Source: a virus
Lineage: Duplodnaviria > Heunggongvirae > Uroviricota > Caudoviricetes
IMG/VR virus record: IMGVR_UViG_3300029186_000001
Strand: one strand, 5' to 3'
Length of the DNA stretch: 64,000 nt
Shown one piece after another: positions 952 through 60,590 of the stretch. The notes under the pieces are model-generated. The model did no database searches. It was not told the DNA's origin and was given only the letters and a program-made list of their open reading frames with translations. A program made the position numbers and the translations under genes. Within the stretch, counting starts at the first letter, position 1. Each line of letters starts with the position of its first letter.

Positions 952-1440
952 GGCTCTGCATTACCTGTTGGTGTCCCTGTTCCGTGGCCTTCAGCCACTC
1001 CGCCAACAGGCTGGCTGAAATGCAACGGTGCGGCTTTTTCTGCTGAAGAATACCCGGAACTGGCAAAGGCTTACCCGACAAATAAATTGCCTGATTTACG
1101 TGGTGAGTTCATTCGTGGCTGGGATGACGGGCGCGGGATTGATCCAGGTCGCTCTATTTTAAGCGAGCAAGGATATGCAACGGAGGATCATGCTCACGGA
1201 TTACCGTCAAAATCAACCGTAGCAACTGACAGCTCAATTAATTTCTACTTTGACGAGGCATGGGCTACTAGTGGTAATACGGGAGTTATCAGATGGGGGA
1301 ACACAAGCGATGCAGGATTGCCAGCCCCTAATTATGGAACTTTTAAAACATATAAACAGTCCGTAGCTAATTTAGGTACTGCTGGCTTAGAAACCCGCCC
1401 TCGTAATATTGCATTTAATTATATTGTGAGGGCGGATTAA
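943..1440 (+). CDS. Tail-fibre variable C-terminal cassette 3
   Basis: 165-aa ORF with same conserved ends and a divergent middle. Confidence 0.6.
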   Translation: MGEGSALPVGVPVPWPSATPPTGWLKCNGAAFSAEEYPELAKAYPTNKLPDLRGEFIRGWDDGRGIDPGRSILSEQGYATEDHAHGLPSKSTVATDSSINFYFDEAWATSGNTGVIRWGNTSDAGLPAPNYGTFKTYKQSVANLGTAGLETRPRNIAFNYIVRAD

Positions 1441-1445
1441 TTATA

Positions 1446-2057
1446 TCAACTGGCTGTAGAAAGTTGTTTTTCAGGCCAGTTGAGATCTGGTGCCGTGGTT
1501 AAATCCATCGCGTTCAGCTCGTCTATATAATCTAGCACGGAGTTAAGCTGCGTGGTTTCTGCCTGCGTCAACTTCCGTCCAGCCCGTAATTTCAACTGAA
1601 TCAGACTAATGGAATCCATCGCAGTATCAATCAATGACTGACGTTTTGTTTCTGCTGCCTCTACAGCTGCACTATGTTGAGCCTCAGTATCAACCACCCA
1701 TTTCTCTCCATCCCATTTGTCGTATGGTGTTAGCGGGGCGATAGTGGTTGTATTTTCCGGATAGTCACCCAACACCGTGATTTCTTCGGGATTCCCAGTG
1801 TCAATGCTATAGACAGTTTCGCCACGATGATCTGGCACATACTCCCATGAACTTAAATCCTCTGAACGGAGAATCGCATAACCTGCTTTATGTGAGCCTG
1901 GAGCATCCAAACAAGAATGTGCCGGAATACCAACGCCAACAGCAAGATATTCAGTTGATGCAGAAATATATTCCCGATTACCACCATCATAGTTATAAAC
2001 GATAATGTTTCCTGCCTGTATGGCTATAAGTTCGCTATTTAATATCGCATTATCCAT
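1446..2057 (-). CDS. U: Tail-fibre assembly chaperone (U-like, Tfa family)
   Basis: 203-aa ORF whose start overlaps the stop of minus-strand cassette 4 (ATAATGG); position and size match phage U/Tfa genes. Confidence 0.7.
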   Translation of the reverse strand: MDNAILNSELIAIQAGNIIVYNYDGGNREYISASTEYLAVGVGIPAHSCLDAPGSHKAGYAILRSEDLSSWEYVPDHRGETVYSIDTGNPEEITVLGDYPENTTTIAPLTPYDKWDGEKWVVDTEAQHSAAVEAAETKRQSLIDTAMDSISLIQLKLRAGRKLTQAETTQLNSVLDYIDELNAMDLTTAPDLNWPEKQLSTAS

Positions 2058-2524
2058 TATGCTGCTCTCACAATATAATTGAAGGCAATGTTACGTGGGC
2101 GGGTTTCATTCCCCCCAGATAACTCCGTTCTGTATTGACTGGTAAATTTACCATTAATCGCTCCTTCTTGGACGGCGTTATCTGTCGACAACAGACTATC
2201 CCCCCCTCTGTCATTTGGCACCAATACCGTGTTATCCCACGCGTCCCATGACCGAATATTATGATAATGACTTCCTGTTAACCACCCCTGTATGCTTAAG
2301 ATGACCCTTCCCGCATCCACACCTCGCCCATCATCCCAACCACGGATAAACTCACCGCGTAAATCAGGTAATTTTAACGTTGGGTAAACCTTTGCCAGAT
2401 TTGGGTACTTTTCAGAAGAAAATGCTGCACCATTGCATTTCAGCCACCCCGTTGGTGGTGTGGCTGAGGGCCATGGAACAGGTACACCAACGGGCAGCGC
2501 CGAGCCTTCCCCTAAACCAACGTT
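2057..2524 (-). CDS. Tail-fibre variable C-terminal cassette 4 (Sv-like), translationally coupled to U
   Basis: Minus-strand frame encodes the same GEGSALPVGVPVPWP...RGEFIRGWDDGRG...RPRNIAFNYIVRAA architecture. Confidence 0.6.
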   Translation of the reverse strand, partial: NVGLGEGSALPVGVPVPWPSATPPTGWLKCNGAAFSSEKYPNLAKVYPTLKLPDLRGEFIRGWDDGRGVDAGRVILSIQGWLTGSHYHNIRSWDAWDNTVLVPNDRGGDSLLSTDNAVQEGAINGKFTSQYRTELSGGNETRPRNIAFNYIVRAA

Positions 2525-2546
2525 TTAGTCTTAATCCCTACCTATA
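2437..2546. repeat. Right arm of inverted repeat flanking the invertible region
   Basis: Reverse complement matches window 1-110. Confidence 0.85.
2507..2532 (-). promoter_or_regulatory. Putative Cin crossover site, inverted orientation, cin-proximal
   Basis: Reverse complement identical to site 15-40; lies 55 bp upstream of cin start. Confidence 0.55.
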
Positions 2547-2586
2547 CCAACGATGTATTTTTAACTAAACAAAGAGGTTGTTTTTC

Positions 2587-3159
2587 ATGCAAATTGGCTA
2601 CATTCGTGTGTCAACAAATGACCAAAACACAGATTTACAAAGAAATGCACTGAACTGCGCAGGATGTGAACTGATTTTTGAAGATAAAATAAGCGGAACA
2701 AAGTCAGCCAGACCAGGCTTGAAAAAGCTGCTCAGAACGTTATCAGAAGGAGATACGCTGGTTGTCTGGAAGCTGGATAGGCTTGGCAGAAGTATGAAAC
2801 ACCTTATCACGCTTATAGAGGAGTTGCGGGAAAAAGGTGTTAATTTCCGTAGTCTGACAGACAGTATTGACACATCAACACCCATGGGGCGTTTCTTTTT
2901 TCACGTCATGGGGGCTTTAGCAGAAATGGAACGTGAATTAATTGTTGAGAGAACACTGGCCGGACTGGCAGCTGCACGCGAACAGGGACGCATTGGCGGA
3001 CGTCGCCCGAAGTTGACAAAAGAACAACATGAGCAAATAGCGAGGTTGATCGAAAATGGCTACAGCAGGAAACAGTTGGCAATTATTTACGATATCGGTG
3101 TATCGACGATTTATCGTTATCATCCTGTAGAGAAGCGCCAAACTCAATCTGAGCTGTAA
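2587..3159 (+). CDS. cin: Serine DNA invertase Cin (Hin/Gin/Cin family)
   Basis: MQIGYIRVSTNDQNTDLQ N-terminus with catalytic Ser context, C-terminal HTH; AAGAGG RBS 10 bp upstream of ATG at 2587. Confidence 0.9.
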   Translation: MQIGYIRVSTNDQNTDLQRNALNCAGCELIFEDKISGTKSARPGLKKLLRTLSEGDTLVVWKLDRLGRSMKHLITLIEELREKGVNFRSLTDSIDTSTPMGRFFFHVMGALAEMERELIVERTLAGLAAAREQGRIGGRRPKLTKEQHEQIARLIENGYSRKQLAIIYDIGVSTIYRYHPVEKRQTQSEL

Positions 3160-3249
3160 TTCTAATGCCGCGTCGGTGTAATTTATCTTGATAGAATAGG
3201 TACATTTATCGCGCGGCACATCAATTCGATGTATCTAGCGCCTGCTGAC

Positions 3250-3281
3250 CGCTAATGAAAACTGTCCTCGAAATGTTGTCC
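3250..3281 (+). repeat. Vestige of a tail-fibre cassette 3-prime end downstream of cin
   Basis: gctaatgaaaactgtcctcgaaatgttgtccc matches the cassette-1 end gctaatgaaaaccgtcctcgtaatattgcc at about 26 of 30 positions. Confidence 0.5.
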
Positions 3282-3594
3282 CTAGCCCGAGACTAGGGTA
3301 TCACCTCTGGAAAGCATACGCAGAACCTTTTTTAACCCAGGGTGCCCAGCCTTTTTGCTGCTCGCCTTATTCGCAAAAATTAGCTCACATCCTGCGCTTT
3401 CAAGTGCTTTTCACTGCATAGCTGTGTTTTGTTCATTTGTCTATATGCGTACATAGCCTATTAGCATATTTTCTGCCCACTATCGTTATTTATTGCAAGC
3501 TACAGGTTTTAATTAACAAAACCAGTGTGTGTGGAAATCACAAAGTGCATACCGTTCTCAGATGTTGTTCAACTTACTGTTGTATAGGTAAAAA

Positions 3595-3858
3595 ATGACA
3601 TTTTATGTACATATCGTGATGTTATCCCTTCTTGGTGGGGTGTATTCGTATTTGAGTGGGCTATGTGAAAACCGTTACGAGTCTTCATGCAAGAAATTGC
3701 TGGCCGAATGTATTTCCGCCGTACTTGCTGGCTTTATTGGCATGTATCTCGCGGAATATAAGGATATGAATGAAAGCCTTCAGAGCTGCATGGTTCTTAT
3801 TTTCAGCGCCAATAGCAGGCTTATTATTGAAGGTTCCAAAAGTCGGTTGAATAGGTAA
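3595..3858 (+). CDS. Hypothetical small hydrophobic protein
   Basis: 87-aa ORF upstream of the holin gene; hydrophobic N-terminal half. Confidence 0.35.
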   Translation: MTFYVHIVMLSLLGGVYSYLSGLCENRYESSCKKLLAECISAVLAGFIGMYLAEYKDMNESLQSCMVLIFSANSRLIIEGSKSRLNR

Positions 3859-5292: not shown

Positions 5293-7212
5293 ATGGAACA
5301 GTTCAATATCAATAAAGGGGTGACGATCAAGCCTGGGCTTGACGTGCTTCCCCCGCCAGTGACTGATGATGAATATCGCGCATTAATGGCCGGTGAGGAC
5401 CGCTATCTGATGACGGAATCCAACACCCTGGAGGAAATCGAGGCTACGTTCTTCTATGACACGCCGATCCACTGGTGTGCTACGGATTTACTGGAGGCGA
5501 TTAGTTCTACTCGTTTGCAGTTACACCGGACCATGCAGGCATTTGTCCGGGCATTGAACCAGAAGCTGAATGGTACCGGAATCTCTGCGGGGAGTGATAA
5601 AACGGGGGATGTGGCCCAGAGCGGCGCGCGCGCGATCGGCGGCGCTGAAATTGGCCGGGCACGTAACGTTAACGGGCTGCCGGTCTTGCCAGCCATTATT
5701 CCGCTCAGTGATGGTCAGACTATCAGCATTCTGTTTCATAGCCCGACAGCGGAAAACCGGATCACCAATAGCGATACGCTGGTTGCTTTCCAGTTCTTAC
5801 TGAATAAAAAAGACGTTACTCACACCGTTGCTCCGATGAGTGGACGTGATATGACGCTGGCGCAGGTCACCATGAAACTTGCCAACCTTGCAGAGAAAAA
5901 CTCGGCAAAATTCCAGCGTGCGCAGAAGAAGAAAAAAGCCCTTGTTGATGAAATAACCCAACTACAGGCTGACAGTGACCAGAAAGAGGATGCCATGAGC
6001 GACCTCGCGGATCAGGTGGCAGCGGTAGAAGGGCAGAAGGCAGATCTGGAGCAGAAAATTAACGCTGTTGCATCGGAAGCGGATTCTCTTTATGAAGAGA
6101 ATGAGCGTTTGCAGACGGAGATTGATCAGCTCAATCGCACTGGTGGGCGCGATACCATTGCTCCAGCGGGGATGACTGGTGGGCACTCTCGCGCGCTGAC
6201 GGATCGCCTTGCCAGTATCAAAAATCGTATGCATATGGACGGGGAAGTGACGCTCAGTAATGGTGCATCAATGAAGCAATTCATTGGGGGCGGCGAAGGG
6301 TATATCCAGTTAACCGATCCGGATGGCAGCGTATACATGATCAAGGCTAAATCCATACAGGGTGTGGACATGGCAGATGCGATCGGCAAGCTGTTTAAAG
6401 CCTATAAAGCGGGTAATGTATCGGAATACCTGGTCCAACCAGAAGAACATAAACCGGAAAACGTCGAACCTGAACCAGCGGAGGATGCCGGTAGCTCTTC
6501 GCCTGAACCAGAAGTCTCTGTAGGTGCATATCGATATGCCCTGCAAATGCGTCCGGCGGCCCCTGGCGCAATACCTGAAGGTAACAAAGCAATTCTGCCG
6601 CGCCCTGATGAAGGTGACCCGTATTATGAATATGCACGCTACGGCATTGCTACTTACGATACCCCGCTTTCTGATCAGCAAATGAGTGAGTACGACCTGA
6701 AGTTATTGCCTCGCGAGGATTCTTTCGACTTCCTGGCGAAGACACTTACTAATGGTCCGTTTGGCAAATATGCACAAAAAGCTCTGGAGCTGGCCACCAG
6801 CTCACCAGACGAGTTCCGCGTAATGCTGAAAACTCAGTTTCAAAAAACTTTCCCCAATATTGCGTTTCCTGGGGGCGCTGGCACCGAGAAAATGGTGCAG
6901 AGCATGATCAATGCATTGCAGGCCGAAGTCGGTGAGATTCCTCAGCCAGAACCGGCCCCGGCACAGCCTGATGAAACGGTTAGCGAAGCAGATGCAGAGG
7001 CTAATAAAGCCATTGAATATCTCAATAACGTGATGGATATACAAAGCACTGACATGGCGGAGATCCGTAACGCCCGGGGCAATGTCCGGGAAGCGATTGC
7101 AGCCCTTCAGGCTGCCGGACGTTTTGAGGAAAACGAAGAGCTGGTTAACGGCGCAGCTCGCCACCTGGCTGATCTGTTGGTAGCAATCCAGAAAGCGGGG
7201 GTAGCGGCATGA
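5293..7212 (+). CDS. darA: DarA antirestriction/internal head protein
   Basis: 639-aa ORF; size and operon position match P1 DarA; coiled-coil middle region. Confidence 0.7.
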   Translation: MEQFNINKGVTIKPGLDVLPPPVTDDEYRALMAGEDRYLMTESNTLEEIEATFFYDTPIHWCATDLLEAISSTRLQLHRTMQAFVRALNQKLNGTGISAGSDKTGDVAQSGARAIGGAEIGRARNVNGLPVLPAIIPLSDGQTISILFHSPTAENRITNSDTLVAFQFLLNKKDVTHTVAPMSGRDMTLAQVTMKLANLAEKNSAKFQRAQKKKKALVDEITQLQADSDQKEDAMSDLADQVAAVEGQKADLEQKINAVASEADSLYEENERLQTEIDQLNRTGGRDTIAPAGMTGGHSRALTDRLASIKNRMHMDGEVTLSNGASMKQFIGGGEGYIQLTDPDGSVYMIKAKSIQGVDMADAIGKLFKAYKAGNVSEYLVQPEEHKPENVEPEPAEDAGSSSPEPEVSVGAYRYALQMRPAAPGAIPEGNKAILPRPDEGDPYYEYARYGIATYDTPLSDQQMSEYDLKLLPREDSFDFLAKTLTNGPFGKYAQKALELATSSPDEFRVMLKTQFQKTFPNIAFPGGAGTEKMVQSMINALQAEVGEIPQPEPAPAQPDETVSEADAEANKAIEYLNNVMDIQSTDMAEIRNARGNVREAIAALQAAGRFEENEELVNGAARHLADLLVAIQKAGVAA

Positions 7213-10574: not shown

Positions 10575-10872
10575 AATCGCAGCGCCATTAGGTGGAGATG
10601 CCATTATCGAATTTGATGATAATGAAGAAGTTTCCGGGCGTTTAAGCATTATCTCCGGTGACATTACCGAGGACATGATCGCTGAAGCCATAGCTGGGGC
10701 AAATCCCAATAGCTATATGGGATTCGTTAACACCCTTGATGCTCCCGCAAGTGATGTTCTCCGAACGCTGCATCTTTACGCTGGCTGGTTTGTTGATTGG
10801 CCAGCAGTAGATGGTGGCGATGAGGACGACGACGATGATTTTGGTGATCATGTAGACCAGATCGTATATTGA
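10564..10872 (+). CDS. Small acidic protein, last gene of darA operon
   Basis: 102-aa ORF with DGGDEDDDDDFGD tail; followed by terminator. Confidence 0.5.
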   Translation: MQIKIAAPLGGDAIIEFDDNEEVSGRLSIISGDITEDMIAEAIAGANPNSYMGFVNTLDAPASDVLRTLHLYAGWFVDWPAVDGGDEDDDDDFGDHVDQIVY

Positions 10873-10874
10873 AG

Positions 10875-10900
10875 AAATCCCGCCAATCGGCGGGATTTTT
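10875..10900. terminator. Rho-independent terminator (bidirectional hairpin)
   Basis: aaatcccgcc-aatc-ggcgggattttt between convergent genes. Confidence 0.7.
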
Positions 10901-10903
10901 ACC

Positions 10904-11998
10904 TCACGAGAAGCTTTTTTCTGATGTCAGCCAACAGTGCTCGTGCAAATCTCTTGGTGGTTTTTCGACAAATGCCTCTTCAGCCACATCCTGCCAGGGG
11001 ATTTGTTTAGCCCATTCAGTTATAGCGTTATGGTTTGCCGAGAATAACGGTATTGTATAGGCCTTCAGCCAGTCTAATGTGCTGGAGTTGTGTTTTTGAG
11101 CGTGATGTTTCGCATGGTGTTTGGCGATCACGATCGTAGGCACTACCCATTTACTACCGTCAGTCATTGTGAAGTGCATATTACGGGGAACAGATGACTT
11201 TTCCATCAACTCCCGAATCCCGGGGAATTTCCCCAAGATCAATCGGCGATATTCATCGCTATTGCGCCCACCAAACTCTTTGGCTTTGAATTCAAGATAT
11301 GCTTCAGAAACGAGAGGTGAATCCTCTGTGTTTAGAGTTATCGCCGTGAAAAAACCAGCAGGATTGTTTTTACTATGGGCCAACCGGTGATGCGAATCAT
11401 AAAAGTACCCTTTCTCGCGTTCCGATGGTTTCGACAGCAACAGCAGGCGCGAGTCATAATTGGTTAAATTGCCAGTTATCACTGCATGAGCGCGATCGCT
11501 GATTTCCGCCGAGTTAATAACGATGAAAAGATCGTGCGGTCCAGTAAAACCAGCCAGAGACTCTTCGTTATTCAGACAATAGGTTATATAGACGCATCCC
11601 CATGTTTCACTGATATGCACCAACCCTTTGTCAGGGTGTATTCTGAAATAATTGCCAAGAAAAGGGTGTTTTTGGGTAACTCGCTCCCAATAACGGAACA
11701 TATAGTCAATTATTGTTTTTCGACTATCGTTAATCGCAGGAGAAACAACCACTGTACGGGAACACGAATACAGTATTGTTTGCAGGATGCTAATCACTGC
11801 CACAATAGAGGTTTCCCCAATACCATGTGGTGTGGTGGCAGTGACTTTGGCTCCGGTGTTCTTTATCGCGTTAATAATTTTTGCTTGATGAGGTGTTAAC
11901 TCAATATCAAGCAACTCTTTTGCTGCCAGTTCCCAATTGTCTTTATACCGTTCTATCAGTGCTAACCAGGCAGATTCATTCTGTATACGATTAATCAC
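10904..11998 (-). CDS. Terminase large subunit (PacB) paralog, ATPase-like domain with degenerate Walker motifs
   Basis: 364-aa ORF; shares LLLLS.P...[11 protein letters not shown]...F.TAI.LN.E.SPLV block with the 494-aa PacB ORF at 31237-32721. Confidence 0.6.
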   Translation of the reverse strand: MINRIQNESAWLALIERYKDNWELAAKELLDIELTPHQAKIINAIKNTGAKVTATTPHGIGETSIVAVISILQTILYSCSRTVVVSPAINDSRKTIIDYMFRYWERVTQKHPFLGNYFRIHPDKGLVHISETWGCVYITYCLNNEESLAGFTGPHDLFIVINSAEISDRAHAVITGNLTNYDSRLLLLSKPSEREKGYFYDSHHRLAHSKNNPAGFFTAITLNTEDSPLVSEAYLEFKAKEFGGRNSDEYRRLILGKFPGIRELMEKSSVPRNMHFTMTDGSKWVVPTIVIAKHHAKHHAQKHNSSTLDWLKAYTIPLFSANHNAITEWAKQIPWQDVAEEAFVEKPPRDLHEHCWLTSEKSFS

Positions 11999-12893
11999 TT
12001 TCCACCTCTTCCGTGGTGTTTTCTTGCAGTTCTGTTAATGCAGCACGACATAGGTTCCGGGCATTGGCTATAGCCACACTTTTGACTTCATCCGTCATCG
12101 TGCAGGTAATGTACTGATCGAGTTCTTCAGCGCGGATGATGCTTTTGCCAATCAGAAACTGTATTTGCCAGAGCAGATCGGCATCCATAATCAGAATTTC
12201 TGCCGGGCCTTCAGGGCCAGCCGGGAAGGAAACATAAGACTGTTTGCCCAGGCCGACAACTCGACAACTTGCTTCAAGAATTGCGCGCTTGAGGTCTGAC
12301 TTTATAACGGAAACAGGTTGATTTTCACCAGTGATTACGCCGTTGACATGGAAAGGCATGTAGCTTGAAATACGCTCCACTTTCCACACGCCAGCAAGCG
12401 ATCCTTCATGCAGCACAATGGGGGTAACCGCGAGTTTCATCTCACCATATAGCTGCTGGCAGATAGCTGGATTGCTGAATACATCTAAAGGCTCACATTC
12501 AAACAGCGGCGCAATCTGCATGAGGTCCATCATGGTCATCCCTGGAGTACGAGCAGTAATGAATCTGCGCATACCAGTATCCATTGCGCTCCAGATTGCT
12601 ACACCATGCTTTTTGCTCACTTCTTCAGTAAAGCCAAGGTGGCACATGATGGTTTTTTCGATAGCCAGATCGGAGATAGAAACCTTTTCGCCAGGTACAC
12701 CATCATTATTGATGGTCACTTCGACACTCTGGCCATTACGCAGGCGGTATTGAATTGTTTTAGTATTTTGTGCTGCCATAGTCTTTTCTCTGCTTAAAAA
12801 CTGATGTATTGCGCCTTCAGGTGGGTCAGGAATGTTTTCCCACCAGCGAAAGCAATATCTCGGGGTGTTCTGTTCGTTAAAAACGCGTTCCAT
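11991..12893 (-). CDS. Hypothetical protein (start uncertain; alternative ATG at 12779)
   Basis: 302-aa maximal ORF; overlaps upstream small ORF, so the shorter start is plausible. Confidence 0.45.
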   Translation of the reverse strand: MERVFNEQNTPRYCFRWWENIPDPPEGAIHQFLSREKTMAAQNTKTIQYRLRNGQSVEVTINNDGVPGEKVSISDLAIEKTIMCHLGFTEEVSKKHGVAIWSAMDTGMRRFITARTPGMTMMDLMQIAPLFECEPLDVFSNPAICQQLYGEMKLAVTPIVLHEGSLAGVWKVERISSYMPFHVNGVITGENQPVSVIKSDLKRAILEASCRVVGLGKQSYVSFPAGPEGPAEILIMDADLLWQIQFLIGKSIIRAEELDQYITCTMTDEVKSVAIANARNLCRAALTELQENTTEEVESD

Positions 12894-12976
12894 TGCCAAC
12901 TTTGGCGTTTTTTAGCGAGTTCGTGCTTTTGTTGGCGTTTGGACCACCGCTTTTCTTTCAGTCGTTTTTTACTCAT
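12794..12976 (-). CDS. Hypothetical small basic protein downstream of ssb
   Basis: 60-aa Lys/Arg-rich ORF starting 6 bp after ssb stop. Confidence 0.25.
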   Translation of the reverse strand: MSKKRLKEKRWSKRQQKHELAKKRQSWQWNAFLTNRTPRDIAFAGGKTFLTHLKAQYISF

Positions 12977-12981
12977 AAACT

Positions 12982-13489: not shown

Positions 13490-13506
13490 AAATTAATTAG
13501 AGCAAT
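13490..13506 (-). promoter_or_regulatory. C1 repressor operator-like 17-mer upstream of ssb
   Basis: aaattaattagagcaat, 16/17 to the recalled P1 operator AAATTTATTAGAGCAAT. Confidence 0.6.
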
Positions 13507-29784: not shown

Positions 29785-29801
29785 ATTGCTCTAATAAATT
29801 A
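29785..29801 (+). promoter_or_regulatory. C1 operator-like 17-mer
   Basis: attgctctaataaatta. Confidence 0.6.
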
Positions 29802-31236: not shown

Positions 31237-32721
31237 TTATTCATTAAGCCATGCCAGAGCTTCATCAACCTGCGCTTCGTCTTCGACGCTAAGCACTTCA
31301 TCTTGGGGAACATAGTTCGCCAACATAGCGAAACAATATGTATCCCAATGGTCCGGTGAGTGCAGGTTGAGTTTTTTCTTCATATCTTCCTTTGACATCA
31401 CCTTCCATTGACCTGCGGAATTTATCCCTACCGGTATCTTTGATGCTTCCTCTATAGTCGCAGCCCCCTTATCAAGCCTCATACGCCCTGATTTTACAGC
31501 TTCTGCCGCCTGAATATTCGCGAAAGCGCGCATATCGAAATAAAGGCTTTTATCTTCACGGCTGTGCATCTTTTTACCCCAGCGGATACGCTGGACGGTA
31601 ATGCCATAGCGTTCGTACATTAGATCAGCCGTCGATTTCCCCAAGCCATCGCCATCAATAGCTATGGTTATGTTCGGGAACCGTTCTGGGTTACATTCTG
31701 CGAAAATCTTGGCGGCTAACTGCGTTTCTGTAACGTCTGTGTATTCCAGCATACGATAGTTGATTACACGGCGTTTATTTCGCTGGCCGGACACCATCAT
31801 GATATTAATAACGGACTTATCTCGTCCTGTGCCACCAGCAACGTCAACACATGCAACCCAGCCCCATCCTTTGGCAATCTTGACCTTTCGCCGCGTCGCC
31901 CGCTCAACCTCATCACGACCAAGAAGAAAGCCATCTTGAGATTTGGGAAATTCACCACGTACTTTGATCATGTACATGGGGTTATCACGACCGCCATACT
32001 CCGCAAGTTTTGCTCGTATAAATTTTGCATCTACAAGCGGAGATTCTTCACTATTCAGTATTATCGCAGTAAACAATCCATCAGGATTTCCCGGGCGAAT
32101 AGCTAGTCTGTGGTGTGAATCGTAGAAATAGCCTGAAGGTCGCGTAGGCTGGGAAAGAAGCAGAATACGGTTATCCTTACCGGTCAGCGCACCTGTTATC
32201 ACACTGAATGCTTTATCACTCACACCCGACGCTTCGTCGATGATATACAAGAGATGATCGGCGTGTTCACCAGCCAACGCCTCCTCATTTCCGGGGCGAC
32301 AGGACTTTATCAATATTGTCCAAACACCCTTGCCAGTCACCTCAAAAAAAGACGTTTCTGTAAGAATGAAATACTTCGACAACCACGGGAATCTGCTAAC
32401 AGCAGTAGCCCAATTGCTCTTTATGTATTTGAAAATACCATCAAGGACTTGCTGTCTTTTGTTAGCGACCAGAATGACGCGAGCGCCAGGGAAAAACATG
32501 ATGAAGAGTATTGCAATGATACTCGTCATATCCGATTTACCAGTACCATGGCCGGAGGTCACACTTGTCCAACTGCCGTCCTGCTGCGTGGACTCAATGA
32601 TCTCATCCTGCTGCCAGGTTGGTGTCTTCCCAAACAACACATCAGCGGCCGCAATCCAGTCATAACGATATAGCGCCACCAGCTCGCGCCAACGTGGGTC
32701 CGTTACGCAACTTCTGGCCAT
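31237..32721 (-). CDS. pacB: Terminase large subunit PacB
   Basis: 494-aa ORF with Walker A GHGTGKS and Walker [10 protein letters not shown]; immediately downstream of pacA. Confidence 0.85.
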
Positions 32722-33914
32722 TAATCATCATCCCCGTACAGTTTGCGGGTAACTTCTTCGTCTTCCTCCTCGTCTTCGTCCAGATCCTGTTCAAGCCATG
32801 CTTCGTTTGATATGCCTTCCGCATCGACATCACCATAACCACCTGTATCGACGATATCGGCAATTTCTTCTCTACGATGCTCAATCCACAATGCCGCATC
32901 AGCGCGGCGGCTGGCGGCCCGTTCTCGCGCGATTTTATCCAGATCTTCAAGTGATGGAGCGCCAGATGCTGTTTGGTTTTCCTCATCATCGGTATTGGTC
33001 TTAGGAGCACGCAGATCGGCTTTGATTTGCTCCAGCATCAGGGGCGGCACTTTTCCTCCATGCGCCTCGATGAATTCAGCCGCTTCCAGCACTGACCAGT
33101 TATTTTCACGCTTTCGTTCGTATGCCAGCTTAACAATGCCAGCTTGCCCCATAGATAAAGCGTGCTTTTCCGCCTCCCGGCTTTCTTTTCGATAGTTATT
33201 CCGGATGCTGTAAATGGTGTTGATCAGGCTGCTTATCTGCGCGGAACAGCTGTTTAGCATGCTCGCGATACGGTATTCAGGCGGAGTACCTTCATCATCG
33301 TCTTTTTGCTGATCGCGCATTTCCTGCACTAGGCGAATACACGTATCCCTGGCGTTCTCCAGCATAAGGAGATGCGAAAGAGACTTTTCCAGAAGAGTGG
33401 TTTCCAGAACATCGGCCCCGGACCGACGCAACATAGCGCGCGCGGCCTTCCGCGCTTCAACGTTATCTATCAGGTAATCGCCAGCTTCGAATTCAAAGCG
33501 TTCACCATCATCATCCAGGGTGTCGCGTTCCAGGCGATCACGCAAGGTCCGGTGGGCGCGGGTGATCACGTCATGATCATCTGAACGATCATTTATGCGC
33601 TTATTTTGGCGCTTCGCATTCTCGACTGCGGCACTGACAACGGCATTAACTCTTTGTTTTTCCGCTATTTCAGCCGAAATGTGATCACCTGCATGTTGAT
33701 CATTAGAGTGATCAATGATCATGCTTTTTAGTGGCTTCCTGACTGGCTTATTTGGCTTGCGGCTGTCCGTAGTCCTGGTGTCTTCTTTGAAGGCACGGAG
33801 ATAACGACGTGCGGTATTAGGGTTAAGATTAAACTCGGCGGCATACTGTGCGATGGTGTAACCACCATCTCGCGCCAGGCGAGCAAAATTCTTCTTGTGA
33901 TCGTCCCAGGTCAC
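32721..33914 (-). CDS. pacA: Terminase small subunit PacA (contains pac site)
   Basis: 397-aa ORF with N-terminal HTH; contains the hexamer cluster. Confidence 0.85.
33563..33722. promoter_or_regulatory. pac: pac packaging site: 3 + 4 (T/C)GATCA hexamers flanking the cleavage region
   Basis: Hexamers at 33563, 33574, 33586 and 33682, 33697, 33709, 33716, each containing a Dam GATC. Confidence 0.8.
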
Positions 33915-55029: not shown

Positions 55030-56028
55030 TTATCCGTTACCGCGCGACGGTTTCTGCGTGATAAACGTCTCAAGCATCTTTTCCGCAATTGCCGACCAGG
55101 TGTGACACTGGACCTTTTCAGCATTTTTCACGCGATCAACGCGAGCAATAACCTCATCCCAATCAATCCGCGACTTGATAACCATATGGTTCACCAACTC
55201 CAGGCGATCCGGCGGAAGGCAATCGGGCGGAGTTAATATCAACGCTCCACACATTGCCGCCTCAAGAACAGTTAATCCAAGGCTTTCGGGATGCGTAACG
55301 ATAAAAATGTCACTCTTACGCAATTCAGCTGCAAATTCGGTTGCTGGTACCGGAGTCCGTCTGTATGGGGTTACCGAAATATTCCCCGGCTCAATGGTAA
55401 CCAATCCGTCATCGGTCAGCGTTTTGGCCTCATACGGAACGGTCAGGCGCTGAAGGTTCATAAGGATACTTAAGGAGTGATCAAACCCACTAACATCAAA
55501 TGCCGCGTGGTCTACAAAAATACGCAGAACATCGTCTGTTTTGGTTTCCAGATGGAACAGCTCCTGATTCGCTGCCCATCCAACATGTTTGTTAAAACGA
55601 TTATGACGCTCTAACCTGCCGGGATTATCCAGGTACCGCCAGGTATCATCGCGGACAGTAAAAGTAATATCGACTGGTGCCGAATCCAGCATAGAACCGT
55701 CATATACCTGGGCTACCCATCCAGAGAATCGGCGACACAGTTGCATGCCTATTTCCCTGGGTACCGTAGTAAAATACCTCAATCCTGGTGCCAAAATGGC
55801 CTTCGCAGAACATGCGGTCGCAGCAGTCAACACAGCTTCAACATAATCCTCCGGGCTTTCGACGCCAGGGGAATATGGACGATGGTATTGCAATGTTACC
55901 CCTGCCTCACTAAAGGCGCAGGCCAGGTTATAAGCCCACATTTCCGTATATGTTTTCACATCACTGATGGCTGCAAATTTTCGCCCAATGATCAGGATGT
56001 TCATCGGCTTTTCCTCATTCCATTGCAT
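55030..56028 (-). CDS. Glycosyltransferase-like protein downstream of ban
   Basis: 332-aa ORF; FIVTHPESLGLTVLEAAMCGALIL resembles GT-B C-terminal motif. Confidence 0.45.
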   Translation of the reverse strand: MQWNEEKPMNILIIGRKFAAISDVKTYTEMWAYNLACAFSEAGVTLQYHRPYSPGVESPEDYVEAVLTAATACSAKAILAPGLRYFTTVPREIGMQLCRRFSGWVAQVYDGSMLDSAPVDITFTVRDDTWRYLDNPGRLERHNRFNKHVGWAANQELFHLETKTDDVLRIFVDHAAFDVSGFDHSLSILMNLQRLTVPYEAKTLTDDGLVTIEPGNISVTPYRRTPVPATEFAAELRKSDIFIVTHPESLGLTVLEAAMCGALILTPPDCLPPDRLELVNHMVIKSRIDWDEVIARVDRVKNAEKVQCHTWSAIAEKMLETFITQKPSRGNG

Positions 56029-57398
56029 TAATAATCCTCTTGCCAGTCAGCACCGGCATAGTTATCAAACCGTGAGTATTGGCCGTTAAAAGCCAATCTC
56101 ACCGTGCCAATTGGGCCATTTCGTTGCTTTCCGATAATTACCTCGGCAATGCCCTTCATTTCGCTATCCGGGTGATAAACTTCGTCGCGATACAGAAACA
56201 TAATCAGGTCTGCGTCCTGCTCAATTGCTCCTGATTCACGTAAATCTGAATTTACCGGTCGTTTGTCCGCACGCTGTTCAAGCGATCGATTAAGTTGTGA
56301 CAATGCCACCACCGGTACTTGTAATTCCTTCGCCAACGCCTTCAGTGAGCGAGAAATCTCGGCAATTTCCAGCGTTCGGTTATCTTGCAGCTCGGGGACG
56401 CGCATAAGTTGCAGGTAGTCGATCATAATCATGCTCAAACCACCATTTTCTTTATAAACACGACGAGCGCGGGAACGTAGCTCTGTCGGCGTCAGGGCGC
56501 TTGAGTCATCAATAAAAATATTCTGCTTGTCCAACAGAATACCCATTGCGCCAGAAACCCGCGCCCAATCCTCGTCGTTAAGTTGCCCTGTCCGAATACG
56601 AGTCTGATCAACGCGTGCAAGAGAAGCCAGTGAGCGCATCATCAGCTGGTGGCTCGGCATCTCAAGGCTAAAAACCAATACGGGCTTATCGTTACGAACT
56701 GCGGCATTTTCGACGAGATTCATCGCAAACGTGGTCTTCCCCATAGATGGGCGGGCGGCGACAATGATGAGATCGGACGGCTGAAGCCCTGCCGTCTTCT
56801 TATTGAGATCGGTAAATCCCGTATCAAGCCCCGTTACACCATCATGTGGTCGCTGAAACAACTCTTCTATGCGAGATACCGTTGCATCGAGAATGCTGGC
56901 GATATCTTTTGGACCACTACCGCTCTTTTGTCGTTTTTCAGCTATTTCAAAAACGCGGCGCTCGGCCATATCCAGCAATTCATTGCTGCCCCTGCCATCC
57001 TGCGCATATCCAGCTTCGGCTATTTCATTTGCGACGGAAATCATTTCACGAACAACCGCGCGTTCACGAACGATATCCGCATAAGCACAAATATTTGCCG
57101 CGCTGGGCGTGTTCTTTGACATCTCCGCAAGGTACGCAAAACCACCGGCGCGTTCTAATTTACCGTTCTGTTCAAGTGCTTCAGCAAGTGTTATCAAATC
57201 AATCGGTTTGCCATGACTTAATAACCTCTCCATCTCACTGAAAATTTCACGATGAGCACTGGTATAAAAATCATCAGCAACTATACGATCTGCAACTTCA
57301 TCCCAGCGGCAGTTATCAAGCATTAAGCCACCAAGTACAGCTTGTTCTGCACTAAGGGAATTTGGCATGGATTCAAGAGGGGATGCAGACATTAGCAC
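56028..57398 (-). CDS. ban: Replicative DNA helicase Ban (DnaB family)
   Basis: 456-aa ORF; N-terminal AEQAVLGGLMLDN and RecA-like core with GKTTFA Walker A. Confidence 0.9.
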   Translation of the reverse strand: MLMSASPLESMPNSLSAEQAVLGGLMLDNCRWDEVADRIVADDFYTSAHREIFSEMERLLSHGKPIDLITLAEALEQNGKLERAGGFAYLAEMSKNTPSAANICAYADIVRERAVVREMISVANEIAEAGYAQDGRGSNELLDMAERRVFEIAEKRQKSGSGPKDIASILDATVSRIEELFQRPHDGVTGLDTGFTDLNKKTAGLQPSDLIIVAARPSMGKTTFAMNLVENAAVRNDKPVLVFSLEMPSHQLMMRSLASLARVDQTRIRTGQLNDEDWARVSGAMGILLDKQNIFIDDSSALTPTELRSRARRVYKENGGLSMIMIDYLQLMRVPELQDNRTLEIAEISRSLKALAKELQVPVVALSQLNRSLEQRADKRPVNSDLRESGAIEQDADLIMFLYRDEVYHPDSEMKGIAEVIIGKQRNGPIGTVRLAFNGQYSRFDNYAGADWQEDY

Positions 57399-60562: not shown

Positions 60563-60590
60563 ATTACACTAATAAATTTATTAGAGCAAT
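60563..60590. promoter_or_regulatory. Overlapping pair of C1 operator-like 17-mers (bipartite palindromic)
   Basis: attacactaataaattt overlapping aaatttattagagcaat. Confidence 0.55.

What the first reader, a model, noticed from the sequence alone, without database searches (positions are those of the whole stretch)
10904..11998. Terminase large-subunit paralog with degenerate Walker A and B motifs
The 364-aa ORF aligns with the PacB ATPase region over a long block that includes [11 protein letters not shown]. Its Walker A reads PHGIGETS instead of GHGTGKS and its Walker B reads FIVINSAE instead of YIIDEAS, and it lacks the C-terminal nuclease part. It is therefore probably an ATPase-dead, nuclease-less paralog located between the darA operon and ssb.
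Basis: seen in the sequence. Interest (0 to 1): 0.45.

Follow-up and report, generated by a model that had tools for sequence, protein, structure and literature searches.

The report
Dead terminase paralog in P1-like plasmid
A P1-like phage-plasmid carries a second, catalytically dead copy of its DNA-packaging motor's ATPase domain, with the nuclease half replaced by a small domain common in early phage genes. It is conserved and under selection, so it most likely acts by binding rather than by enzyme activity.

Summary

New findings:
- It is not decaying. dN/dS is 0.09-0.30, and all 36 checked copies have open reading frames. About 120 plasmids carry it.
- It belongs to a monophyletic clade (95% bootstrap) of Walker-dead PacB-like proteins nested among real terminases.
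- Residues 268-364 are a separate domain. Elsewhere this domain is a free-standing, very acidic ~100-aa early phage protein (at least 1809 clusters).
- It is the second gene of a conserved isaA-ORF364 module in the C1-repressed ssb operon, inside the known RD-2 hotspot. P1 itself has IS1+isaB at this position.

The function is unproven. My best guess (about 0.3) is a binding-only terminase mimic used in phage-host or phage-phage conflict. I rate it a new variant of a known kind.

The parts
10904..11998 (-). ORF364: 364-aa non-catalytic PacB (large terminase) paralog. It matches phrog_5902 over its full length.
11213..11998 (-). Residues 1-262: TerL-type ATPase-fold domain, the part homologous to PacB 11-274.
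11807..11833 (-). Degenerate Walker A, residues 56-64: TPHGIGETS versus Pac[10 protein letters not shown]. The P-loop glycines are kept, while Lys becomes Glu.
   Evidence: Identical in 20 of 20 close copies.
11504..11533 (-). Degenerate Walker B, residues 156-165: DLFIVINSAE versus Pac[11 protein letters not shown]. Asp becomes Ile and Glu becomes Asn.
11378..11410 (-). Block [11 protein letters not shown], residues 197-207, identical to PacB. It is part of the best-conserved stretch.
   Evidence: 22 of 33 nucleotides are identical, so conservation is at the protein level.
10907..11197 (-). Residues 268-364: gained C-terminal domain. It belongs to a very large family of free-standing ~100-aa early phage proteins and matches the C-terminus of phrog_17928. 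It sits where PacB has its nuclease domain.
10875..10898 (.). 10-bp GC-rich hairpin between the convergent ORF364 and hxr genes. It is a likely bidirectional intrinsic terminator and lies inside the swapped cassette.
   Evidence: Folding gave -20.7 kcal/mol with z = -4.0.
10871..11989 (.). Cassette that differs from phage P1. Homology to P1 stops at 11990 and resumes at 10870. P1 has 93 bp + IS1 + isaB at this position.
11991..12779 (-). isaA (262 aa from the ATG at 12779; 94% identical to P1 IsaA). It is the upstream partner gene and overlaps the ORF364 start by 8 nt.
   Evidence: The pair is conserved in a second plasmid lineage.
12982..13470 (-). ssb, the first gene of the presumed ssb-isaA-ORF364 operon.
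13490..13506 (-). C1 repressor operator Ossb (ATTGCTCTAATTAATTT), overlapping the ssb promoters. It is identical to the P1 site.
31237..32721 (-). pacB, the window's catalytically intact large terminase (SGHGTGKSD and [10 protein letters not shown]). It is the active paralog.

Best explanation
ORF364 is a conserved pseudoenzyme derived from a PacB-type large terminase. It keeps the ATPase fold but has lost the Walker A lysine, the Walker B Asp/Glu and the whole nuclease domain. In place of the nuclease it has a ~95-aa domain that is otherwise a free-standing early phage protein. It is the distal gene of an accessory isaA-ORF364 cassette in the C1-repressed ssb early operon. That places its expression early, on infection or induction, before the late terminase PacAB.

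Shown here: homology, fold, motif loss, purifying selection, clade membership, cassette structure and operon context.

Inferred: because it cannot plausibly hydrolyse ATP or cut DNA, it acts by binding. The most likely role is as a terminase look-alike in phage-host or phage-phage conflict. It would act as a decoy or antagonist for factors that recognise the terminase ATPase domain, for example the terminase-sensing Avs1-3 or Upx systems. It would not be part of the packaging machine. IsaA is probably its partner.
For: Identity and inactivation:
- Homology to PacB, and the TerL ATPase fold.
- Motif loss.

It is functional and not decaying:
- dN/dS is 0.09-0.30.
- 20 of 20 close copies and 16 of 16 copies at about 50% identity are open.
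- It is present in about 120 PLSDB plasmids.
- The same architecture is kept at 37-53% identity.

It is an old, diversified family:
- 11 Walker-dead proteins form a clade in 191 of 200 NJ bootstraps, and in 189 of 200 without the motif columns. The clade is nested among PacB-type terminases.

It behaves as an accessory gene:
- It is absent from P1 and P7.
- It sits in the known variable region RD-2 (PMC6906374, PMC9603915).
- isaA and isaB are non-essential in P1 (PMC10695390).
- An ISEc60 insertion splits the gene in one E. albertii plasmid.

Family members sit among counter-defence or accessory early genes:
- Next to the dar antirestriction operon in this window.
- After a Tad2-like gene plus a dUTPase in the second lineage.
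- After a Ref-like nuclease, near a PNKP-like gene, a methylase and HigB.

Early, repressor-controlled expression:
- The Ossb operator is identical to P1's.
- No promoter-like or terminator-like site was found on the coding strand inside the operon.
- A hairpin terminator follows the ORF.

Precedent: the terminase-ATPase-like accessory proteins T4 vs.8 and Ksap2 engage the Avs2 sensor pocket, and their authors suggest they may be anti-defence proteins (PMC13601566, PMC11564622).
Against: - There is no experimental or interaction evidence of any kind for a decoy role.
- EcAvs2 and SeAvs3 read out the ATP/Mg site of terminase (PMC13601566). A protein without that site may simply not bind them.
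- Binding Upx would be expected to trigger it rather than block it.
- There were no hits in PADLOC, Pfam or NCBIfam, and I could not scan any library of known anti-defence proteins.
- The best-conserved parts shared with PacB are the N-terminal helices and residues 182-258. They could equally serve an interaction with PacA, PacB or the portal.
- The C-terminal domain family and several neighbours (ssb, ban, ref) point toward replication or recombination instead.
Confidence: 0.3

Rival explanations
1. ORF364 regulates the phage's own packaging machine. The dead paralog would bind PacA, PacB, pac DNA or the portal. It could then delay or tune pac cleavage, motor assembly or head filling, as 'prozyme'-type dead paralogs regulate their active partners.
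For: The regions kept best between ORF364 and PacB are the N-terminal helices and residues 182-258, including [11 protein letters not shown] and GGRxSxxYR. The catalytic motifs are gone. From my recollection of T4 gp17 work, not tested here, this roughly corresponds to the lid/N-subdomain II implicated in portal docking. The gene always co-occurs with an intact PacB.
Against: - It is patchy: about 120 of about 594 pacB-positive plasmids carry it.
- It is absent from P1, P7 and D6, which package normally.
- It is never next to pacAB. It moves between accessory hotspots.
- It is only 35% identical to the resident PacB.
- The clade does not track each host's PacB.
Confidence: 0.2
2. ORF364 is a replication or recombination accessory factor. 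The dead motor domain would bind DNA or DNA ends, and the C-terminal domain would contact replisome or recombination proteins such as SSB, the Ban helicase or RecA/Ref.
For: - The gene lies in the ssb operon.
- A 37%-identical full-length homologue sits directly after the ban DnaB-type helicase gene.
- A short homologue overlaps the end of a Ref-like RecA-dependent nuclease gene.
- The free-standing C-terminal-domain proteins lie after DnaB-type helicase genes. In Xanthomonas phages the domain is fused to a protein in a recombinase-exonuclease-SSB module.
Against: - The free-standing domain also occurs in early-left accessory stretches that have no helicase.
- These positions are simply where temperate phages keep accessory genes.
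- The free-standing proteins are very acidic (median pI 4.3), but the fused copy is neutral (pI 7.1).
- No DNA-binding motif was identified.
Confidence: 0.2
3. ORF364 is an exclusion or competition weapon. The dead terminase subunit would poison the packaging motor, or sequester the small terminase, of competing P1-like phages or satellites.
For: It is a hotspot cargo gene (PMC6906374). Dominant-negative action is plausible for a ring ATPase subunit that lacks catalytic residues. Established systems do target phage terminase subunits: PICI interference proteins (my recollection), and TerI and Rip1 (cited in PMC13601566).
Against: - It appears to be repressed by C1 in the lysogen, which is the state in which exclusion genes normally act.
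- It would risk poisoning its own PacB.
- There were no PADLOC hits.
Confidence: 0.12
4. ORF364 is a decaying remnant of a second terminase gene and has no function.
For: Catalytic motifs and the nuclease domain are lost. One plasmid has an IS insertion in the gene.
Against: - dN/dS is 0.09-0.30.
- All 36 checked copies are open.
- The architecture is conserved down to 37% identity.
- The AlphaFold model is confident (pLDDT 92, pTM 0.87).
- The clade of such proteins is monophyletic and old.
Confidence: 0.03
5. ORF364 is still an active NTPase that uses a non-canonical site.
For: The P-loop glycines (G59, G61) and the upstream Gln (Q38, the Q-motif position) are invariant even in the dead clade.
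Against: - The Walker A lysine position varies freely across the clade (E, R, H, T, M, C, I, Q).
- The Walker B acidic pair is likewise replaced by varied residues.
- No compensating conserved residues specific to the clade were seen.
Confidence: 0.03

Closest known systems
PacB, large terminase subunit of phage P1 (the window's own copy is at 31237-32721)
   Same: Homologous over the whole ATPase domain (35% identity, E 5e-52) with the same fold. The N-terminal helices and the [11 protein letters not shown] / GGRxSxxYR region are conserved.
   Different: ORF364 lacks the Walker A lysine, the Walker B Asp/Glu and the nuclease domain. It has an extra C-terminal domain. It lies in an early operon rather than the late pacAB operon. 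It is accessory and not universal.
T4 vs.8 and Ksap2, phage accessory proteins that resemble the terminase ATPase domain (PMC13601566, PMC11564622)
   Same: They are stand-alone terminase-ATPase-like proteins encoded in addition to the real terminase. They are restricted to particular phage lineages, their function is unknown, and their authors suspect links to anti-defence.
   Different: vs.8 keeps its Walker A and B motifs, whereas ORF364 has lost them. My tblastn search of the phage collection found no T4-like phage at E <= 1e-5. ORF364 also carries a fused second domain and pairs with IsaA. Whether it engages Avs2 is untested.
phrog_5902 (function unknown) and PGAP 'hypothetical protein'; a few GenBank records call it 'terminase large subunit'
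   Same: ORF364 matches phrog_5902 end to end (E 1.6e-186). It is 97-100% identical to proteins in many E. coli, Salmonella, Klebsiella and Shigella P1-like plasmids.
   Different: Existing annotation either gives no function or wrongly calls it a terminase (MH422554 and MH445380).
Free-standing ~100-aa early phage proteins (C-terminus of phrog_17928; no Pfam family)
   Same: Residues 268-364 match this family. The conserved core M-x-D-x-S-x-W-x-x-P ... T-x-P-L-F ... W-A ... W is kept.
   Different: Those proteins stand alone and are very acidic (median pI 4.3, net charge about -12). The fused copy is neutral (pI 7.1) and lacks the NNMNWSDV and DDGWxNGEK signatures.

Membership tests
Large terminase subunit (TerL, PacB type), as an enzyme | TerL-type ASCE ATPase fold and sequence homology | tested here: met
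Large terminase subunit (TerL, PacB type), as an enzyme | Walker A motif GxxxxGK[ST] with the catalytic lysine | tested here: not met
   ORF364 reads TPHGIGETS where PacB reads SGHGTGKSD. 123 of 143 aligned relatives keep GK[ST] together with Walker B [D/E]E.
Large terminase subunit (TerL, PacB type), as an enzyme | Walker B motif hhhhDE with the catalytic glutamate | tested here: not met
   ORF364 reads FIVINSA where PacB reads YIIDEAS. Asp becomes Ile and Glu becomes Asn.
Large terminase subunit (TerL, PacB type), as an enzyme | C-terminal RNase H-like nuclease domain | tested here: not met
   Nothing aligns with PacB 275-494. Residues 268-364 belong to another family.
Large terminase subunit (TerL, PacB type), as an enzyme | Encoded next to the small terminase gene in the late packaging operon | tested here: not met
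   ORF364 lies in the ssb-isaA operon behind a C1 operator. pacA-pacB are at 31237-33914. IsaA is unrelated to PacA.
Clade of Walker-dead PacB-like proteins (defined here) | Monophyly with other PacB-like proteins that lack both Walker motifs and the nuclease domain | tested here: met
   11 proteins form a clade in 191 of 200 NJ bootstraps, and in 189 of 200 without the motif columns. Their lengths are 230-266 aa or 364-444 aa.
Free-standing ~100-aa early phage protein family (C-terminus of phrog_17928) | Profile match over the whole ~95-aa domain | tested here: met
   phrog_17928 E 1.4e-13 for the whole protein and 8.2e-15 for the domain alone. A profile built from 7 members retrieved 1809 clusters.
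Free-standing ~100-aa early phage protein family (C-terminus of phrog_17928) | Strongly acidic composition | tested here: not met
   Median pI is 4.28 for 117 free-standing members. The fused domain has pI 7.12.
Known anti-phage defence systems (PADLOC) | Match to any PADLOC-DB model | tested here: not met
   No hit at E <= 0.1 for ORF364 or IsaA.
Anti-defence decoy or antagonist of terminase sensors (Avs1-3, Upx) | Binds the sensor and blocks activation by the real terminase | not testable with these tools
   Only indirect context supports this: and PMC13601566.

The most novel reading that the evidence does not exclude
The clade may represent terminase-derived pseudoenzymes that phage-plasmids deploy early as immune antagonists. 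The mimic would keep the terminase ATPase surface. Being freed from catalysis, it would have mutated the 'immutable' active-site features that NLR-like sensors (Avs1-3, Upx) read. It could then occupy or mislead those sensors, or other terminase-binding factors, without triggering them. IsaA and the fused early domain would act as co-factors.
Probability: 0.15. Interest if true: 0.8.

Novelty: new variant of a known kind. Interest (0 to 1): 0.5.

Why it matters
Large terminases are treated as single-copy hallmark enzymes of tailed phages. They are also a main target of bacterial pattern-recognition immunity. A conserved, selected family of catalytically dead terminase paralogs, carried in accessory hotspots of clinically common E. 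coli and Salmonella phage-plasmids, would add a viral pseudoenzyme class to phage biology.

It also gives a concrete candidate to test against terminase-sensing defences or for packaging control. On the practical side, several GenBank records call this gene 'terminase large subunit'. That label can mislead marker-gene phylogenies and phage-typing pipelines. The analysis also suggests that reference phage P1 has lost the second gene of an isaA module, with IS1+isaB now at that position.

Tried and rejected
- A single-sequence AlphaFold run gave a useless model (pLDDT 33). It was replaced by a run with a 130-sequence alignment.
- Pfam, NCBIfam and PADLOC gave no meaningful hit for ORF364 or IsaA. 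PDB sequence searches gave none either.
- I tested whether isaA-ORF364 is a duplicated pacA-pacB operon. IsaA shows no similarity to PacA by BLASTP or by profile-profile comparison (probability 0.2%), so I rejected this idea.
- I tested whether ORF364 is related to P1 IsaB. It is not.
- I tested whether IsaA is related to the Ref-like nuclease that precedes a short family member. It is not.
- Recent gene conversion with pacB is rejected. There is no meaningful DNA similarity, and the identical peptide block differs at 11 of 33 nucleotides.
- The pseudogene reading is rejected by dN/dS and by intact copies.
- The search for related loci failed with the 9-sequence alignment because no stretch was conserved enough. 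It worked with 4 sequences.
- Fold searches returned only terminase and helicase ATPase hits. The small C-terminal domain could not be searched separately.
- Literature searches found no description of a dead terminase paralog or of a terminase decoy.

Full report
**1. The observation**

The window has one 364-aa ORF at 10904..11998, on the minus strand, starting with GTG. The start codon follows a GAGGTGG ribosome-binding site and overlaps the stop codon of the upstream gene by 8 nt.

BLASTP against P1 PacB gives 35% identity over ORF residues 11-272, with E 5e-52. A tblastn search of 50,697 phage records finds PacB of P1, P7, D6, SJ46, RCS47 and phiW39 at E 1e-44 to 2e-46. It then finds weaker matches to other large terminases.

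- Walker A: Pac[10 protein letters not shown] becomes TPHGIGETS.
- Walker B: Pac[11 protein letters not shown] becomes DLFIVINSAE. By position, Asp becomes Ile and Glu becomes Asn.
- [11 protein letters not shown] is identical in both proteins.

The identical block is encoded with 11 of 33 nucleotide differences, and the two genes share no meaningful DNA similarity. The paralogy is therefore old, and the block is held by selection on the protein. Nothing in the ORF aligns with the nuclease half of PacB.

**2. Fold**

**3. A paralog, not the terminase**

The window's own PacB is at 31237-32721, with PacA at 32721-33914, and its Walker motifs are intact.

**4. It is not decaying**

- Pairwise dN/dS among four alleles (93.8-98.9% DNA identity to the window copy) is 0.09-0.30. 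Between the two most divergent alleles it is 0.28 for the ATPase-like part and 0.12 for the C-terminal part.
- All 20 close copies examined are full-length and carry the same degenerate Walker A. All 16 copies of a version about 50% identical have no internal stop codon.
- About 120 PLSDB plasmids carry the gene at 90% identity or more. They are roughly 92-100 kb P1-like phage-plasmids of E. coli, E. albertii, E. fergusonii, Salmonella, Klebsiella and Shigella.
- For scale, 336 plasmids carry isaA and about 594 carry a P1-type pacB.

**5. A family of dead terminase paralogs**

A full HMMER scan of 1.84 billion representative proteins returned 746 hits. Among the 143 relatives of at least 220 aa that I aligned, the closest ones all lack both Walker motifs. 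These are P0002, P0004, P0006, P0007, P0009, P0010, P0013 and P0014, plus P0043 and P0060. They are either about 230-266 aa (ATPase-like domain only) or 364-444 aa. In contrast, 123 relatives keep GK[ST] and [D/E]E.

In neighbour-joining trees of the ATPase region, the 11 dead proteins form one clade nested among PacB-type terminases. Support is 191 of 200 bootstraps, or 189 of 200 after removing the motif columns. One further protein, P0042, appears to be an independent loss.

Within the clade, the residue at the Walker A lysine position varies freely (E, R, H, T, M, C, I, Q). This argues against any retained phosphate-binding role. The P-loop glycines and the upstream glutamine remain invariant, which I read as structural conservation.

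**6. The C-terminal domain**

Residues 268-364 match the C-terminus of phrog_17928. The same domain occurs in several arrangements:
- As a free-standing 98-aa protein two genes after a DnaB-type helicase in Cronobacter phage JK004.
- Fused to the end of a long DUF1351-like protein in a recombinase-exonuclease-SSB module of Xanthomonas phages.
- In one metagenomic protein (P0025), N-terminal to a dead terminase domain, so the domain order is swapped.

A profile of seven members retrieved 1809 protein clusters. Nearly all are free-standing proteins of 96-114 aa with no Pfam family and no name.

Their genes lie in the accessory early regions of temperate phages. Some sit between the replication genes and ninB or rusA. 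Others sit in the early-left region near integrase, with neighbours such as Lar-like, Dam, HOT-like and RdgC genes.

The free-standing proteins are very acidic, with median pI 4.28 and net charge about -12. The fused copy is neutral, with pI 7.1.

**7. Genomic setting**

Homology between the window and reference P1 is about 96% from lyz through ssb and isaA. It stops exactly at window 11990 and resumes at 10870, at the end of hxr. In between, P1 has 93 bp, IS1 and isaB. The window has ORF364 plus a strong hairpin at 10875-10898, with folding energy -20.7 kcal/mol and z = -4.0.

This interval is the published variable region RD-2 ('region 2') of P1-like phage-plasmids (PMC6906374, PMC9603915). 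In P1, isaA and isaB are non-essential by CRISPRi (PMC10695390).

The C1 operator Ossb and the ssb promoters are identical to those of P1 at 13490-13506. No promoter-like or terminator-like site was found on the coding strand between ssb and the end of ORF364. The most economical reading is an ssb-isaA-ORF364 operon that is repressed in the lysogen and expressed early.

**8. IsaA as partner, and other contexts**

In a second lineage of ~90-94 kb E. coli, Salmonella and Shigella plasmids, PacB is only 56% identical to that of P1. There an IsaA homologue (42-48% identical) is again immediately followed by an ORF364 homologue (49-53% identical, full length). The pair lies at a different place, after pacB, c1, a cre-like gene, a dUTPase and a protein with a Tad2-like (Thoeris anti-defence) domain.

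The pair therefore moves as a module. This suggests that P1 lost its second gene, with IS1 and isaB now at that position.

Other family members have different neighbours:
- A 362-aa homologue (37% identical, with the C-terminal domain) sits directly after ban.
- The 263-aa P0013 overlaps the end of a Ref-like RecA-dependent nuclease gene. It lies in a P1-like element near a PNKP-like gene, HigB, RdgC and a methylase.
- The 264-aa P0007 follows a radical-SAM gene.

IsaA has no detectable relation to PacA.

**9. Mechanism**

The following is established: ORF364 has a folded terminase ATPase-like domain that has lost its catalytic motifs and its nuclease partner. It is under selection, accessory, probably expressed early, paired with IsaA and fused to a common early-phage domain.

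The inference is that it acts by binding. I favour a conflict-related role as a terminase look-alike, with confidence about 0.3, for four reasons:
- The clade behaves like mobile hotspot cargo.
- Its neighbours are often counter-defence genes.
- It should be expressed before the late terminase.
- Recent work shows that terminase-ATPase-like accessory proteins (T4 vs.8, Ksap2) fit the Avs2 sensor pocket. That work also shows that Avs2 and Avs3 read the terminase ATP site, which is exactly what this protein has lost (PMC13601566, PMC11564622).

Against this reading, a protein without the ATP site may simply not bind those sensors, and nothing here tests binding.

The rivals are:
- A regulator of the phage's own PacAB or portal (0.2).
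- A replication or recombination accessory factor, suggested by ssb, ban, ref and the C-terminal domain's neighbourhoods (0.2).
- A packaging poison against competitors (0.12).
- A dead remnant (0.03).
- A cryptic active NTPase (0.03).

**10. Comparison and novelty**

ORF364 is a homologue of TerL, but it fails four of five defining features of the enzyme. The label 'terminase large subunit' in MH422554 and MH445380 is therefore misleading.

The nearest described things are T4 vs.8 and Ksap2. vs.8 keeps its Walker motifs, and no T4-like phage was matched in the tblastn search. Full-text searches found no description of a dead terminase paralog or of a terminase decoy.

I rate it a new variant of a known kind, with interest 0.5.

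Noticed in passing
window 12780-12981 (minus strand), including the ORF at 12794-12976: The ~200-nt stretch between ssb and the isaA ATG is annotated in P1 as an N-terminal extension of IsaA, giving 320 aa. In the window the frame is broken, and a separate, very basic 60-aa ORF (MSKKRLKEKRWSKRQQKH...) appears. The PHROG profile and PGAP support a 262-264 aa IsaA, so the P1 annotation of isaA is probably too long.
   Followed up: partly
L012 (NZ_CP117661.1, E. albertii pEA13_2), locus 1379-3777: An ISEc60 (IS4-like) element is inserted in the ORF364 homologue and splits it into two annotated fragments. This is a natural knock-out that the plasmid tolerates.
   Followed up: no
L032 5018-5512 and 5527-6213 (the same arrangement occurs in L038 and L043): In the second plasmid lineage, the genes just upstream of isaA encode a dUTPase (Pfam E 3.9e-14) and a 228-aa protein with a Tad2-like Thoeris anti-defence domain (PF11195, E 1.1e-20).
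   Followed up: partly
protein P0025 (246 aa, metagenomic, probably cut by the contig end): The ~100-aa early-phage domain is N-terminal to a Walker-dead terminase-like domain. This is the reverse of the order in ORF364 and is an independent sign that the two modules work together.
   Followed up: partly
window 55030-56028 (minus strand), directly downstream of the ban-like helicase gene at 56028-57398: This 332-aa protein has weak glycosyltransferase family 1 matches (Pfam E 3.5e-5, below the curated cut-off). In contig L047 the same slot after ban holds a 362-aa ORF364 homologue instead.
   Followed up: partly
proteins P0160-P0277 (free-standing relatives of ORF364 residues 268-364): This is a very large family, with at least 1809 clusters at 90% identity. 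The proteins are ~100 aa, strongly acidic (median pI 4.3) early phage proteins with no Pfam family, no name and no solved structure. The conserved signature is MPDGSxWxVP...TxPLF...DWAxNNMNWSDV...DDGWxNGEK.
   Followed up: partly
protein P0042 (268 aa): Another short terminase-ATPase-like protein has degenerate Walker motifs (QGAFDSTR and IVVSKAAE). It falls outside the main dead clade in the tree, which suggests an independent loss of catalysis.
   Followed up: no
window, 15 sites including 13490-13506, 29785-29801, 44378-44394 and 60574-60590: A scan with the C1 operator consensus (ATTGCTCTAATAAATTT, up to 3 mismatches) finds 15 sites across the window. One is a perfect match starting at 60590 on the minus strand. 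This fits a P1-type immunity network.
   Followed up: no
L010 (NZ_CP043269.1, E. albertii), locus 6675-7095: A TnpB-family RNA-guided endonuclease gene sits just beyond the lysozyme gene in this P1-like plasmid. At the corresponding place the window and P1 have the lydD/lydE and pro genes.
   Followed up: no
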